Shown here: one piece after another, positions 40,908 to 52,103 of the stretch
Numbering within the stretch: position 1 is the stretch's first letter
Layout of the letters: the number at the start of each line of letters is the position of its first letter
Assembly (NCBI GenBank): GCA_030429765.1
Contig: JAUIER010000003.1
Coordinates: forward strand, 144,402 to 208,401
Origin: a bacterium
Lineage (GTDB): Bacteria > Omnitrophota > Gorgyraeia > Zapsychrales > Zapsychraceae
Length of the DNA: 64,000 bases
Direction of reading: 5' to 3'
The notes under the pieces: model-generated
Database searches by the model: none
The model's input: the letters and a program-made list of their open reading frames with translations, nothing else
Told to the model about the DNA's origin: nothing
Translations under genes and position numbers: made by a program

Positions 40908-43900
40908 ATGTCAACTGAACATTCCATCAACAATTTGCTCTGGATTCGCCGCGTCGTCGCGCACGTTCTCGTTGTCGCTATGGTGGTGACCACTGTTTGG
41001 CCGGCCTCAATCGTGCATGCCGTTCAGCCGGCCACTATCAGCCATCTGCCTGTTCCCGGTACAATGGTTTCTGTGAGTCCGGGCTATCAGCCTATGGCCC
41101 TGACGGGAGTTCGTATTTATCCGGCCAATCCGCTGCAGTTTGATTTCATTATTGATCCCGGCGATTCGCAACTCGATGATCAAGCGACACAAAGCGCTTC
41201 CGAAAGGCTGATCAAATATTTTCTCACCGCGCTAACCATTCCCAAAAATGACGTATGGGTAAACCTCTCTCCGCATCAACAAGACCGGGTGATCCCTGAA
41301 CATTTAGCACATACCGACATGGGGCGGGACATGCTGTCGCAGGACTATCTCTTAAAACAGCTTAGCGCGTCGATGCTGTATCCCGAGCGGGATTTAGGTG
41401 CCGCTTTCTGGGAGAATATTCGTCGACGGGCTTATCAGCAATTTGGTTCGACTGACATTCCGGTCCGGACATTCAATAAGGTTTGGATCGTTCCGGACAA
41501 AGCCGTGGTATATGAACAGCAGGATGCCGCCTTTGTGGTTGAGTCGCGTTTGCGGGTGATGCTGGAGTCGGATTATCAAGCCTATCTGAGTTCCCGAAAT
41601 GTGAGTGATGCCGCTGGTTCATCCGATCAGTCGACAGAGCAACAGATTGATCAGCTGACGTCTGATATGATCCGTGATTTGATTATTCCCGAGATTGAAA
41701 AGGAAATCAATGAAGGCCGGCAATTCGCAGCGCTTAGGCAGATCTATCAATCCATGATCCTCGCCACGTGGTATCGCCGCAATTTAACACAGACCCTCTT
41801 GAGTCAGTTGTACGTTGGACAATCAAAGATTGCCGGTGTGGATATCGCCGAAAAAGACATCAAGGACAAAATCTATCAGCAGTATCTCAAGGCGTTCAAA
41901 GCCGGTGTGTATAACTACATCCGGGAGGATATCGATCCGGCGACGCGCCAGGTGGTGCCGCGTCAGTACGTGTCAGGCGGTTTGACGATGGATGTCGATA
42001 AGGTATTCCGGACGTTTAACGATGTTGATACCGCGCGTCAATTAAACGCCCGTTTGACAGATGCTGACCAGGCGTTGCTGTCCGCGAGGGTGGTTCTAAA
42101 CCCTGAAGGTCAGGGGAGTGTTCAGGATCTTTCCGCTCAGTTGGATGACTGGCTGGAACGATTGAAATCTTCCACTACCGACGCGTCGATGACGGCGGAT
42201 CCCGACGCCCCGGCCAGGCTGTTGGCCGGCGAGGTGATCAGCATTTCAGCCGCCGATATTCCACTTCGAGCGGAGGCGATTGCCGAAGTTATCGAGATGT
42301 ATGAGGCGGATCATGAGGATGAACTAGCGGCCGAGGACGTCACGGAGGAACAGATTTATGCCGTCACATATCGGCGGCTGAATAGCAGGGCCGTCCAAGG
42401 ACTGGAAGCGTTCTTAAACCAAGCTGTCCGTCTTCATCGGGAGGCGAGGCCATTGTCCATCCTTTTTGAAGGTGAGAACTTCTTGCATCTCGCGGAGCTG
42501 ATCGATAATGCCACCGATGCGCTGCGGCAGCGATATCAGCAGAATATCCGTCGCGCGGAAATCCGGTTTGAGATTCTGGAATATGATCGCCATATCGAGT
42601 TGCAGATTCTCGACAACGGGATTGGTTGGACTGAGACCGGATCCAAGGACTTCTTATCGTTAGGCGGATTAGGGACCGCGCTTCACGAGGCCAAGAAGAC
42701 TTTCTGGGAACAGAATATTGATTTGAACGTGAGCCCACGACGGGATCAGCAGGGAGCCGCGGTGGCGATCAGAATTCCTAAATCGGATATTAGCATTGAA
42801 GATTTATTTGGAGCAGAGTCTGCCGCGGCCTATTTTGATTTAACGACTAATCCGCTGGCCCAGATGGCTCCGTCGGCGATCCTGGTTCATCCTTATATAT
42901 CGGACTCGATCTACGTCGACAAAATGAAGGGCTTTGATCGGGCCTTGATACTTTTCAATAAGAATTATCCAAGCACACCACGATTAGCGGCCATCGATAA
43001 TGTCAAAACACTGGTCAGTCGGGACGGCCGCTACAACAGTGCGGTGGACATGGGTGACCGCGTTGTATTCCTGGGCGGACATTGCCGGCAGTGTCTATCG
43101 CAGGCGATTCTGCAGACCGCCGAACGGGCCTTCAAATCGGGCGATGAATTCAGGGCCATACTGCCGACGGACGGAATTTATACGACGGCGGATCTGGTTA
43201 GTGTCGGCGAGCAGGATCCGGAGCGCGCGGTGCTGCTGGAGGATGTCCTGTCCGGATTGACACCGATGGATGGTTCCCGATTTGCGTATTTGACCAAGGA
43301 GATCAAGTCGAGTTTGATGGCGGCCTATGCCAAGGATGGATTGGATCAGCTGAGCATTATCGTGGAATCAGATGGACAGCGCGAGTTTGTGGTCGAGGCT
43401 GGTCGGGAAAGAAGACGTTTGATCCTCGAGTTTGTCGGGCCGCAGGACCGGGCGATGCTTGTGCCGGATAAAGGATACGGATTTAAGCGCGGTCCATTGA
43501 AGGCGAATCTGAAACCCTACGCGCAGCAGTTACGTGTGACCTTCGACCGTCTGAGCTTTGGTTTCTTAACAGCCGGCGAACTGGATGCGCTTGTTAACGC
43601 CGTAATGAAAATCCGGGCTGACTCGATGGCGGCGCGTCCAGAGTTCTTCGGCGCTTTGCCGCATCGATTGACCGATCAGACGGCCCGCGAGACATTTATG
43701 TCTCGGATCTTGCAGCAACGAACTCTCTATCAGGAGCGCACAAATACGGATGGATCGCGGATGTTTAGTGAAACGGATATTCACGGCATGCTGTTTCAAA
43801 AGCTGATCCCGATTAGCTGGCTGGATCAGCTAATGACTGACGGATTGAACCGGTCGCAGGCCATGACCATCGTCACCGGCTGGAGCGATCCGTTAGGCGT

Positions 43901-52103: not shown

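What the first reader, a model, noticed from the sequence alone, without database searches (positions are those of the whole stretch)
40908..52103. Giant 3731-aa mosaic ORF that joins DNA-binding modules to several nucleotide-transfer catalytic folds
A single 11.2-kb ORF encodes the following regions in order:
- a hydrophobic N-terminal anchor;
- an unassigned N-terminal domain;
- a GHKL-ATPase-like region (ELIDNATDA / ILDNGIGW / GGLGTAL);
- four tandem 35-aa repeats;
- two RNA-polymerase-alpha-CTD-like HhH modules;
- at least five XRE-type HTH modules;
- a SAM-methyltransferase motif I (VVDIFAGEGNF);
- an APH/kinase-like HGDIYDGNVLV...IDIED region;
- a Fic/Doc-like motif;
- a conserved C-terminal tail.
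I know of no described protein family with this architecture. An anchored polypeptide carrying AMPylation-, phosphorylation- and methylation-type domains plus many DNA-binding modules suggests a delivered multi-effector, a surface/host-interaction giant protein, or a fused defence/abortive-infection machine.
Basis: partly seen in the sequence, partly recalled or inferred. Interest (0 to 1): 0.9.

Follow-up and report, generated by a model that had tools for sequence, protein, structure and literature searches.

The report
Omnitrophota exported head-cargo-tail giant protein
The 3,731-residue gene is real and is one large member of a very large family of Omnitrophota proteins, apparently undescribed, predicted to be exported and almost free of cysteine, in which a constant head and a constant tail enclose freely shuffled enzyme and DNA-binding modules.

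Summary
The ORF 40908-52103 (+) exists and shows no sign of being an assembly chimera. Three XRE HTHs are solid and a fourth is weak. The kinase-like region is supported. The GHKL, methyltransferase and two alpha-CTD-like modules are weakly supported. The four 35-aa repeats are exact. The Fic-like region lacks the catalytic histidine.

The main result is the context. The "anchor" looks like a Sec signal peptide. The "unassigned N-terminal domain" and the "conserved tail" define a family of at least 8,389 clusters at 50% identity. Every named source is an Omnitrophota MAG. Neither module has a Pfam or NCBIfam match, and no solved structure matches the head.

Between head and tail the cargo is unrelated from member to member. 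It includes receiver domains, PGK, PGI, enolase, SNF2 helicases and kinases. Family members hold about ten times less cysteine than their genomic neighbours. A short D-x-A-M motif marks the module borders.

My best reading is a Sec-exported carrier of shuffled modules, possibly delivered to host or prey cells. A defence-system reading and an artefact reading are not supported. I file it as a new variant of a known kind.

The parts
40908..52103 (+). Complete ORF, 3731 aa plus stop codon
   Evidence: GC3 is uniform along the ORF (0.54-0.62, sd 0.029) and similar to the adjacent genes, and there are no N bases.
40908..41021 (+). Sec-type signal peptide (aa 1-38): basic n-region (..WIRR), hydrophobic core, then VHA|VQ
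   Evidence: Read from the translation. The same K/R, hydrophobic, A-x-A|Q layout is visible in the family sequences printed. It is the only hydrophobic segment in the protein. Cleavage is inferred, not predicted with a dedicated tool.
41022..42179 (+). Family-defining head domain (aa ~39-424), including LPVPGTMV, DYLLKQL, FNKVWIVP, LRQIYQS and PRQYVSGG
42180..42191 (+). Junction motif DASM (aa 425) at the end of the head
42489..42782 (+). GHKL/Bergerat ATPase-like region (aa 528-625): ELIDNATDA, DNGIGW, GGLGTAL
   Evidence: Pfam HATPase_c E 2e-4, 22 bits, below the cut-off of 26.4, covering profile positions 10-109 of 111. NCBIfam HSP90 family 2.8e-4. A homologue search with aa 460-700 found nothing.
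43446..43457 (+). Junction motif DRAM (aa 847)
43842..44261 (+). Four tandem 35-aa repeats (aa 979-1118), unit G(L/M)(S/N)..A..(I/V)..W..P
   Evidence: matches at aa 979, 1014, 1049 and 1084. No Pfam match.
44412..44423 (+). Junction motif DRAM (aa 1169)
44469..44648 (+). RNA-polymerase alpha-CTD-like HhH module 1 (aa ~1188-1247)
   Evidence: NCBIfam RpoA 0.0029.
44736..44879 (+). Alpha-CTD-like HhH module 2 (aa ~1277-1324)
   Evidence: BLASTP E 2e-5. Pfam RNA_pol_A_CTD E 0.03-0.17. PDB 1doq E 0.26.
44913..44924 (+). Junction motif DRAM (aa 1336)
45000..45185 (+). Weak XRE-type HTH (aa 1365-1426)
   Evidence: Pfam HTH_3 E 0.0044 on the excised segment. Self-built HMM i-E 0.01.
45246..45947 (+). 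Three robust XRE-type HTH domains (aa 1447-1512, 1536-1605, 1616-1680)
   Evidence: Pfam HTH_3 1.1e-24, HTH_31 1.5e-16. PADLOC HTH_VI 2.9e-19..
46503..46514 (+). Junction motif DAAM (aa 1866)
47286..47297 (+). Junction motif DRAM (aa 2127)
47778..48260 (+). Class I SAM-methyltransferase-like region (aa 2291-2451), motif I VVDIFAGEGNF
   Evidence: Pfam Methyltransf_23/12/25/32 at E 0.003-0.28, all below cut-off. PADLOC mad2 5.8e-7.
48294..48305 (+). Junction motif DAAM (aa 2463)
49506..49517 (+). Junction motif DPAM (aa 2867)
49701..50126 (+). Protein-kinase-like region of Kdo/WaaP, RIO or APH type (aa 2932-3073), HGDIYDGNVLV ... IDIED
   Evidence: Pfam Kdo 24.9 bits, above the cut-off of 21.3. 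PADLOC MkoA 8.6e-12 and PD-T4-6 1e-6. The N-lobe lysine was not identified.
51327..51677 (+). Fic-fold-like region (aa 3474-3590) with a degenerate motif QVFQNGNHR
   Evidence: Pfam Fic 19.6 bits, below the cut-off of 24. The alignment to FICD homologue 5jj6 puts Q in place of the catalytic H.
51786..51797 (+). Junction motif DEAM (aa 3627), 6 residues before the tail
51816..51986 (+). Family-defining C-terminal tail (aa 3637-3693): GGINFD ... DGFSPVIIQIAPVTNLPLLLGL, followed by a polar end
   Evidence: Shared with at least 30 of the 78 family members from genome loci at 32-52% identity. Alignment A3. Present in 105 of 130 new representatives and never internal. No Pfam or NCBIfam match.
1..269 (+). 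C-terminal end, with the same tail, of a second family member that runs off the left edge of the window
   Evidence: tblastn with the tail E 4e-11 at 45-257. Translation ...VGGIDFTGDRLNIQLKRDADGIPLPMPVQPLRHIQIDGLVPVILDIRPINVLPLFVARE*.

Best explanation
The ORF is a genuine gene of an Omnitrophota bacterium. It is a large member of a phylum-wide family built as signal peptide, constant ~380-aa head, variable cargo and constant ~57-aa tail.

Proposed mechanism, with the status of each step:
1. The N-terminus is a Sec signal peptide cleaved after A-x-A (VHA|VQ here), so the whole chain leaves the cytoplasm. This is inferred from the sequence pattern.
2. The chain crosses or lives in an extracytoplasmic space where cysteines are selected against. 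The depletion is shown. The reason for it is inferred.
3. The head and tail are the only parts kept constant. They act as handles for the next step, which could be recognition by a sorting or translocation machine, attachment to the envelope, or head-to-tail assembly. This is inferred and the machine is unknown.
4. The cargo is a string of independently shuffled modules, separated in this gene by D-x-A-M junctions that may be processing sites. The motif and its position at borders are shown. Cleavage is speculative.
5. The cargo here is a GHKL-like ATPase, alpha-CTD-like and XRE DNA-binding modules, a methyltransferase-like module, a kinase-like module and a Fic fold with a degenerate motif. 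These need ATP, SAM or DNA. The most economical place for them to work is the cytoplasm of another cell, namely the host or prey of these small, host-dependent bacteria. This is inferred.

I put the sub-claims as follows: real gene and family member 0.95, exported 0.8, acts in or on another cell 0.4, processed at junctions 0.25.
For: - ORF and composition.
- Family size and taxonomy: one search gave 541 hits at about E 1e-110, named Omnitrophica or Omnitrophota. One search gave at least 569 genome loci, all Omnitrophota MAGs, several per genome. One search gave 8,389 clusters, with the head always at residues 1 to about 60. Searches confirmed the taxonomy of two named genera.
- Tail. One search found it in 105 of 130 representatives, always terminal.
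- Cargo is unrelated between members. It consists of cytoplasm-type domains: Response_reg in 5 members, PGK 1e-107, PGI 1.6e-189, enolase 4e-86, SNF2, RNA_pol_A_CTD, PP2C, ABC1 kinase and GNAT.
- Signal peptides: the basic, hydrophobic, A-x-A|Q layout is visible in the family sequences printed.
- Cysteine: 0.05% in this protein, 0.09% over 148,397 aa of 78 members and 0.096% over 230,731 aa of 130 further members. Neighbouring ORFs of the same loci have 0.90% and the other window genes 1.04%.
- There is one hydrophobic segment only.
- Junction motif: 8 strict D.AM copies against about 0.6 expected, all at module borders. Family-wide the rate is 0.894 per 1000 aa against 0.102 expected. It lies after the head in 89 of 285 members and before the tail in 38 of 178.
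- Literature: Omnitrophota are ultra-small and host-dependent (PMC10066038). One cultured member preys on archaea, and its intron RNA was seen inside dead prey cells (PMC13153191). Large mosaic proteins with signal peptides and with MTase, HATPase, GNAT or HAD content are reported for the phylum (10.64898/2026.06.07.730766; 10.1101/2023.11.21.568195).
- Few cysteines in autotransporter passengers is established knowledge (see the introduction of PMC9769942).
Against: - No dedicated signal-peptide or topology predictor was run.
- No transporter, sortase or protease gene recurs next to family members, so steps 3 and 4 have no identified machinery.
- The head has no recognisable fold.
- The AlphaFold output gives no contact map, so I could not test whether head and tail touch.
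- Some cargo is near-canonical glycolytic enzymes. That is odd for effectors and would fit a housekeeping role.
- The D-x-A-M motif is present at a given border in only 21-31% of members.
- No orthologue of this particular cargo was found, so conservation of the whole architecture could not be checked.
- The assignment of the window to Omnitrophota rests on the family's distribution, not on marker genes.
Confidence: 0.5

Rival explanations
1. Envelope or periplasmic scaffold ('coat'). The protein is exported but stays with the producer. Head and tail fasten it to the envelope or to each other in chains or lattices. The cargo serves mainly for binding or for extracellular and periplasmic chemistry, and many catalytic sites are degenerate.
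For: - The export signal and cysteine depletion fit this reading equally well.
- The Fic motif lacks its catalytic His, and several domain calls are sub-threshold.
- An extracellular coat made of a giant protein was proposed for V. archaeovorus (PMC10066038, section 11).
- The tail has a proline-rich hydrophobic stretch that nears a membrane-segment score in some members.
- The head-plus-tail pairing would suit head-to-tail assembly.
Against: - HTH arrays, alpha-CTD modules, receiver domains, SNF2 helicases, kinases and glycolytic enzymes have no obvious substrate outside a cytoplasm.
- The residues after the hydrophobic stretch are acidic or polar, which is not the pattern of a stop-transfer anchor.
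Confidence: 0.27
2. Inner-membrane-tethered cytoplasmic multi-enzyme or regulator. The N-terminal hydrophobic segment is an uncleaved anchor, and the bulk of the protein works in the producer's own cytoplasm.
For: - The cargo is of cytoplasmic type, including PGK, PGI and enolase with very strong scores and DNA-binding HTHs.
- Nielsen and Lui consider this topology for TM-only giants (10.64898/2026.06.07.730766, section 21).
Against: - Basic residues precede the hydrophobic core and a conserved A-x-A|Q follows it. By the positive-inside rule (established knowledge) this places the chain outside.
- The tenfold cysteine depletion relative to neighbours is not expected of cytoplasmic proteins.
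- There are no further membrane segments.
Confidence: 0.12
3. Fused anti-phage defence or abortive-infection machine, one of the first reader's alternatives.
For: PADLOC matches to MkoA, PD-T4-6, mad2, RmrA and CapH models.
Against: - All the matches are to generic kinase, MTase and HTH domains over partial model lengths.
- The flanks are glycogen-metabolism, epimerase, CBS and pyruvate-kinase genes, not a defence island.
- The protein carries an export signal and belongs to a cysteine-poor exported family.
- The family is nearly absent from viral contigs, with 3 loci.
Confidence: 0.03
4. Assembly or frameshift artefact that joins unrelated genes into one ORF.
For: No read data were available, and no orthologue with the same cargo was found.
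Against: - The ORF starts with the family's signal peptide and head and ends with the family's tail, as 105 of 130 representatives do.
- Lengths of 2,000-5,300 aa are common in the family.
- GC3 is flat along the ORF.
- The same junction motif, and the same codons (GAC NNN GCG ATG), recur at 8 of the 9 internal borders.
Confidence: 0.02

Closest known systems
MARTX (multifunctional autoprocessing RTX) toxins
   Same: Both are very large, cysteine-poor secreted proteins in which conserved N- and C-terminal regions bracket a central array of interchangeable effector modules, separated by short linkers that are cleaved. This description of MARTX is from my own knowledge of the family.
   Different: There are no RTX or glycine-rich repeats and no cysteine protease domain in the Pfam scan. 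The protein has a Sec signal peptide rather than a C-terminal type I signal. The head and tail are unrelated in sequence to MARTX arms. Cleavage and translocation are not shown here.
Two-partner-secretion exoproteins (TpsA/CdiA) and other polymorphic toxins
   Same: All have a signal peptide followed directly by a conserved N-terminal targeting domain, a long cysteine-poor body, variable functional modules and many paralogues.
   Different: The head is alpha/beta with long helices, not a TPS beta-helix, and there is no Haemagg_act hit. The variable part is internal and the C-terminus is constant. No recurrent downstream immunity gene was found, and no TpsB-like neighbour.
Omnitrophota giant proteins (archaeovorins, dockerin-type and multi-enzyme giants; West-Roberts 2023, Nielsen and Lui 2026)
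   Same: They share the phylum, the mosaic of methyltransferase, HATPase_c, GNAT, HAD, receiver and sugar-metabolism domains, frequent signal peptides and sequence-unique cargo (10.64898/2026.06.07.730766, sections 8-9).
   Different: Those proteins are at least 10,000 aa with tens to hundreds of membrane helices and with SecA_DEAD, C39 or dockerin domains. This protein is 3,731 aa, has one hydrophobic segment and has none of those domains. The head-tail bracket, the cysteine depletion and the D-x-A-M junction are not mentioned in the parts of those papers I read.
Type IX secretion cargo with a C-terminal sorting domain; autotransporters
   Same: Both combine Sec export with a conserved C-terminal element that decides the fate of a variable passenger. 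Autotransporter passengers also have few cysteines.
   Different: The tail matches no Por_Secre_tail, autotransporter or other Pfam or NCBIfam model even at E 10. It is too short (~57 aa) to be a barrel. The family has a constant head as well.

Membership tests
Omnitrophota head-cargo-tail family (defined here) | Signal peptide followed by the ~380-aa head at the extreme N-terminus | tested here: met
   About 50% identity to the family. The profile always matches at the N-terminus.
Omnitrophota head-cargo-tail family (defined here) | GGI(D/N)(L/F) ... G(F/L)xPVIIxIxPVxNLPxLLG tail within about 10-60 aa of the stop | tested here: met
   aa 3637-3693, 38 aa before the stop.
Omnitrophota head-cargo-tail family (defined here) | Near absence of cysteine | tested here: met
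   2 Cys in 3731 aa. The family has 0.09% against 0.9-1.0% in neighbours.
MARTX toxins | RTX or glycine-rich repeat arms and a cysteine protease (CPD) domain | tested here: not met
   No such Pfam family at E <= 1 over the whole protein.
Two-partner secretion TpsA | N-terminal TPS (Haemagg_act) beta-helix domain | tested here: not met
   No Pfam hit. The model of the head is helices plus two beta-hairpins.
Polymorphic toxin-immunity systems | Variable C-terminal toxin with a cognate immunity gene immediately downstream | tested here: not met
   The C-terminus is the conserved tail. 79 downstream ORFs of about 45 loci show no recurrent immunity family, and the ORF 52150-52779 has no Pfam hit.
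Omnitrophota archaeovorin or dockerin-type giants | At least 10-30 kaa, many membrane helices, and SecA_DEAD, C39, dockerin or TSP3 domains | tested here: not met
   3731 aa, one hydrophobic segment, and none of these Pfam families.
Fic/Doc AMPylases | Catalytic motif HPFx(D/E)GN(G/K)R with the histidine | tested here: not met
   QVFQNGNHR aligned to the motif of FICD homologue 5jj6. Pfam scores 19.6 bits against a cut-off of 24.
GHKL ATPases | N-box ExxxNxxD, G1 DxGxG and G2 GxxGxG in order, plus a profile match | tested here: inconclusive
   The motifs ELIDNATDA, DNGIGW and GGLGTAL are present. HATPase_c scores 22 bits against a cut-off of 26.4. No homologues were available to build a profile.
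XRE/Cro-C1 HTH | Profile match above the curated cut-off | tested here: met
   HTH_3 scores 86.6 bits against a cut-off of 23, with three domains.
Protein-kinase-like (Kdo/WaaP, RIO, APH) | Catalytic loop HxDxxxxN, a metal-binding D, and an ATP-binding lysine in the N-lobe | tested here: inconclusive
   The catalytic loop and the following IDIED are present, and Kdo scores 24.9 bits against a cut-off of 21.3. MkoA 8.6e-12. The N-lobe lysine and glycine loop were not identified.
Class I SAM methyltransferases | Motif I hh(D/E)hGxGxG within a Rossmann fold, plus a profile match | tested here: inconclusive
   VVDIFAGEGNF is present. All Pfam MTase families fall below their cut-offs. PADLOC mad2 5.8e-7.
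Known C-terminal sorting signals (T9SS CTD, PEP-CTERM, LPXTG and others) | Match to the corresponding Pfam or NCBIfam models; a motif plus a TM helix plus a basic tail | tested here: not met
   No family at E <= 10 for aa 3585-3731. The hydrophobic stretch holds three prolines and is followed by acidic or polar residues.

The most novel reading that the evidence does not exclude
Head and tail are the signals of a protein export or delivery route specific to Omnitrophota that has not been described. By this route these small host-dependent bacteria would ship strings of cysteine-free, cytoplasm-type modules out of the cell and into host or prey cells. The modules include transcription-factor-like HTH arrays, kinases, methyltransferases, receiver domains and even whole glycolytic enzymes. 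The strings would be polyproteins cut at the D-x-A-M junctions, or at the double-glycine that closes the head (YFSGG) and opens the tail (GGIDL), possibly by the C39-type peptidases that are common in this phylum. The nucleotide-level sameness of the junctions in this gene (GAC NNN GCG ATG) would then also mark the places where modules are swapped.
Probability: 0.2. Interest if true: 0.9.

Novelty: new variant of a known kind. Interest (0 to 1): 0.68.

Why it matters
Omnitrophota are widespread, uncultured except for one enrichment, and thought to live on other cells. How they act on their hosts is unknown. This work finds a family of more than 8,000 sequence clusters with a constant head and tail around freely exchanged cargo, a tenfold loss of cysteine and a recurrent junction motif. 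That gives a concrete, testable handle. It names the proteins most likely to leave the cell. It gives two conserved modules with which to fish for the machinery, and it predicts where the chains might be cut. It also offers an explanation for a puzzle raised in the papers on Omnitrophota giants, namely why cytoplasm-type enzymes sit behind signal peptides. For annotation, two new domain models (head and tail) would label thousands of 'hypothetical proteins'.

Tried and rejected
- The whole-protein homologue search timed out.
- A homologue search with the GHKL segment (aa 460-700) found nothing, so no profile could be built to lift the GHKL call above threshold.
- An exact-sequence look-up of the protein found no record.
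- A metagenome scan for orthologues of the cargo found none.
- The afdb50 library was not available.
- The AlphaFold run on P0007 was meant to show whether the tail docks on the head. The tool returns no contacts or PAE, so the question stays open.
- The tail profile search returned only short fragments.
- Neighbour clustering and a downstream-gene Pfam survey found no recurrent transporter, protease or immunity gene.
- The fifth and sixth HTH candidates were rejected for lack of any profile support.
- Tat export was considered because of the 'RR' in this protein. I dropped it because the family sequences printed show no conserved twin-arginine motif.
- A lipoprotein signal was excluded because there is no cysteine.
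- A viral origin was rejected: 3 loci among 2.9 million viral contigs.
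Full report
**Observation.** The window holds one uninterrupted ORF at 40908-52103 on the + strand, coding for 3,731 aa. It lies in a 64-kb stretch in which every sizeable gene is on the + strand. 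Upstream are a response regulator-EAL protein and three glycogen-metabolism genes (a GlgB-like enzyme, GH57 and GH77). Downstream are an unassigned 209-aa ORF, an NAD-dependent epimerase, a CBS protein and pyruvate kinase. Further out are ArgRS, RecJ, an M3 peptidase, GGDEF, band-7, PrmA and ApbE. This is ordinary chromosomal context. GC3 is flat along the ORF (0.54-0.62) and close to that of the adjacent genes, and there are no N bases.

- Solid: three XRE-type HTH domains at aa 1447-1512, 1536-1605 and 1616-1680 (Pfam HTH_3 1.1e-24).
- Solid: four repeats of exactly 35 aa, starting at aa 979, 1014, 1049 and 1084.
- Supported: a kinase-like region. Kdo/WaaP scores 24.9 bits against a cut-off of 21.3 and PADLOC MkoA gives 8.6e-12. 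I could not find the N-lobe lysine.
- Weak but coherent: the GHKL region has all three Bergerat motifs in order, but HATPase_c reaches only 22 bits against a cut-off of 26.4.
- Weak but coherent: the methyltransferase region has motif I, five sub-threshold Pfam families and PADLOC mad2 at 5.8e-7.
Pfam gives only E 0.03-0.17.
- A fourth HTH at aa 1365-1426 is weak. Two further candidates have no support.
- The Fic-like region aligns with FICD homologue 5jj6 and with 3cuc, but reads QVFQNGNHR where Fic enzymes have HPFx(D/E)GNGR. Without the catalytic histidine, AMPylation is unlikely.
- About 40% of the protein matches nothing (aa 640-980, 1690-2290, 2470-2930 and 3100-3470).

**The head and the tail define a family.** The first 500 residues have no Pfam or NCBIfam match. 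They are nevertheless about 50% identical to hundreds of proteins at E around 1e-110 to 1e-124. Every one of those that carries a name comes from an Omnitrophota MAG or an unclassified metagenome. A profile of the head scored against 1.84 billion cluster representatives finds 8,389 proteins at E <= 1e-3 and 6,773 at E <= 1e-30. In the best 150 the match begins at residue 1-64 of the protein, and 149 of them have a single matched stretch.

All are in Omnitrophota MAGs, some labelled 'uncultured Planctomycetales'. Several lie in the same genome, for example six in JAJDCA01 and five in DATDQB01 among the best 80 (taxonomy checked). Only three loci turned up in 2.9 million viral contigs.

The last ~100 residues of the ORF match the C-termini of the same proteins. 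The consensus is GGIDLNPxxLDLq...G(F/L)xPVIINIxPVxNLPlLLG followed by 10-60 polar residues. Of 130 further representatives, 105 carry this tail, always at the end and never internally. The tail has no Pfam or NCBIfam match even at E 10. A second member of the family ends at window position 269, having run in from beyond the left edge. In 24 of the 78 genome loci another member lies within 10 kb.

**Size and cargo.** Family members range from about 420 aa to 5,312 aa, with a median of 1,543 aa in the representative set. A length of 3,731 aa is therefore unremarkable. BLASTP of this protein against 78 and then 130 members finds the head and the tail but almost nothing between them. The exceptions are isolated modules:
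- the HTH array, shared with P0299;
- the kinase, shared with L001 and P0297;
- the Fic-like region, shared with L012;
- two unassigned blocks, shared with P0248 and P0275.

A Pfam survey of the cargo of 36 complete members gives receiver domains (5 members), PGK (2 members, 1e-107), PGI (1.6e-189), enolase (4e-86), phosphoglucomutase, PPDK, SNF2 and DEAD helicases, RNA-polymerase alpha-CTD (1.3e-23), PP2C, an ABC1 kinase, GNAT, a glycosyltransferase and others. The cargo is thus a shuffled set of domains normally found in the cytoplasm.

**Evidence that the family is exported.** The giant begins MSTEHSINNLLWIRR-VVAHVLVVAMVVTTVWPASIVHA|VQPATISHLPVPG. The family sequences printed show the same layout: a K/R-rich start, a hydrophobic core of about 20 residues, then A-x-A followed by Q a few residues before the conserved LNLPxPG. 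This is the pattern of a Sec signal peptide cut by signal peptidase I. I rely here on established knowledge, as no predictor was run.

The giant has no other hydrophobic segment. It has 2 cysteines in 3,731 residues (0.05%). The 78 members from genome loci have 0.09% cysteine over 148,397 aa, and 130 further members have 0.096% over 230,731 aa. ORFs next to them in the same loci have 0.90% and the other genes of this window 1.04%. A tenfold depletion that also covers captured housekeeping-type enzymes is what one expects of chains that must cross or live in an oxidising, extracytoplasmic space. The known parallel is autotransporter passengers (see the introduction of PMC9769942; otherwise my own knowledge).

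**A junction motif.** In the giant the tetrapeptide D-x-A-M, followed by L, M, I or T, occurs at aa 847, 1169, 1336, 1866, 2127, 2463, 2867 and 3627, with DASM at aa 425. Those positions are directly after the head, between the recognisable cargo blocks, and 6 residues before the tail. Composition predicts about 0.6 copies.

Across 328 family sequences the motif occurs 0.894 times per 1000 aa, against 0.102 expected from composition and 0.21 in neighbouring ORFs. It lies within 100 aa after the head in 89 of 285 members, at a median of 20 aa after YFSGG. It lies within 25 aa before the tail in 38 of 178 members. In the giant the DNA reads GAC NNN GCG ATG at 8 of the 9 sites, although GCG is only 43% of alanine codons and GAC only 36% of aspartate codons in this gene. 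Family-wide the codon bias is weaker.

I cannot tell whether this is a processing site, a linker cap or a scar of module exchange. I also note that the head ends in a near-invariant YFSGG and the tail begins with an invariant GG. C39 double-glycine peptidases are the commonest architecture cluster among the largest Omnitrophota proteins (10.64898/2026.06.07.730766, section 8). Excision of the cargo is an idea, not a result.

**Machinery.** Neither all-against-all clustering of 745 neighbouring ORFs nor a Pfam survey of 79 ORFs directly downstream shows a recurrent transporter, protease, chaperone or immunity gene. The partner of the head and tail, if there is one, is encoded elsewhere.

**Explanation.** I conclude that the gene codes for a Sec-exported carrier of shuffled modules. 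What happens after export is inferred. The cargo of this member needs ATP, SAM or DNA. Omnitrophota are ultra-small and host-dependent (PMC10066038). The one cultured member preys on archaea, and its intron RNA has been seen inside dead prey cells (PMC13153191). Delivery of cargo to another cell is therefore the most economical reading, at roughly 0.4. A surface or periplasmic scaffold is the main rival at about 0.27. A cytoplasmic, membrane-tethered role would explain the glycolytic cargo. It is contradicted, however, by the charge distribution around the hydrophobic core, the A-x-A|Q site and the cysteine depletion. Defence-system and artefact readings are poorly supported.

**Comparison with the known.** In layout the nearest analogue is a MARTX toxin, with conserved ends, exchangeable central effectors and linkers that are cut. 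Two-partner-secretion exoproteins are also close, with a signal peptide followed by a conserved targeting domain and a long cysteine-poor body. The defining domains of both are absent. There is also no toxin-immunity arrangement.

Within Omnitrophota, two preprints describe proteins of 10,000-147,000 aa. These carry many membrane helices, SecA, C39 or dockerin domains, and the same kind of mosaic content with MTase, HATPase_c, GNAT, HAD, receiver and sugar-metabolism domains (10.1101/2023.11.21.568195; 10.64898/2026.06.07.730766). The present protein lacks their defining features. The head-tail bracket, the cysteine depletion and the junction motif do not appear in the sections I read.

The paper library is partial, so an earlier description elsewhere cannot be excluded. 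I therefore file the finding as a new variant of a known kind, namely large mosaic exported proteins of host-dependent bacteria.

Noticed in passing
window 1-269 (+): A second member of the same family ends here with the same tail: ...VGGIDFTGDRLNIQLKRDADGIPLPMPVQPLRHIQIDGLVPVILDIRPINVLPLFVARE*. Its body lies beyond the left edge of the window.
   Followed up: partly
window ~270-4700: Directly after that second member lies a low-GC island (GC 0.36-0.42 against about 0.50 elsewhere). It holds a SUKH/SMI1-KNR4 protein (1807-2277, Pfam 9.8e-19), a family known as immunity proteins of polymorphic toxins. It also holds a small Cys-rich ORF (848-1132, CPCCGY...CPVCFWEDD). Two ORFs (517-855 and 2955-3917) both begin MISRQ(A/I)GADP. 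The region looks like an immunity-cassette array. No such array recurs after other family members.
   Followed up: partly
window 42180, 43446, 44412, 44913, 46503, 47286, 48294, 49506, 51786 (12 nt each): The D-x-A-M module junctions share the DNA GAC NNN GCG ATG at 8 of the 9 sites, which is more than the peptide requires (GCG in 8 of 8 Ala codons against 43% usage; GAC in 8 of 9 against 36%). This may be a sign of exchange or spread at the nucleotide level.
   Followed up: partly
head end (aa ~354-358, window ~41967-41981) and tail start (aa 3637-3638, window 51816-51821): Both constant modules face the cargo with a double glycine: near-invariant YFSGG in the family (YVSGG here) and invariant GG of GGIDL. 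C39 double-glycine peptidases are reported as common in Omnitrophota giant proteins. A link was not tested.
   Followed up: no
L001 (DATDQB010000010.1), family ORF aa ~1887-2473: A ~95-aa unit is repeated at least four times in this family member, and it matches aa 2016-2156 of the giant at 27-31% identity. It is an unassigned module that is shared and amplified.
   Followed up: no
P0036 aa 474 and L003 family ORF aa 494: Two other members carry a GHKL N-box (ELVANASDA, ELVSNASDA) at about the same distance after the head as the giant does (ELIDNATDA at aa 527). A GHKL-like module may be a recurrent first cargo.
   Followed up: no
window 1-64000: Every sizeable, non-shadow ORF (about 46) is on the + strand, and the cumulative GC skew rises monotonically across the whole 64 kb. 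No tRNA genes were found.
   Followed up: no
window 56406-57437 and 57457-57978: The pyruvate kinase ORF (343 aa) matches only the barrel domain. A separate 173-aa ORF follows 20 nt later and was not scanned. This may be a split pyruvate kinase.
   Followed up: no
loci L001-L078, upstream flanks: An OmpR-type response regulator lies within 10 kb of the family gene in 13 of 78 loci and a histidine kinase in 6. The window has a response regulator-EAL gene 5 kb upstream of the giant. This may be chance, since such genes are common.
   Followed up: no
tails of P0010-like members (e.g. L010, P0064, P0114): Some tails carry an insert with two cysteines (..PCLDEDNDGRCE.., ..PCEEEGADSSKPCQ..) between GGIDL and the hydrophobic stretch. 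These are among the few cysteines in the family and are always paired.
   Followed up: no
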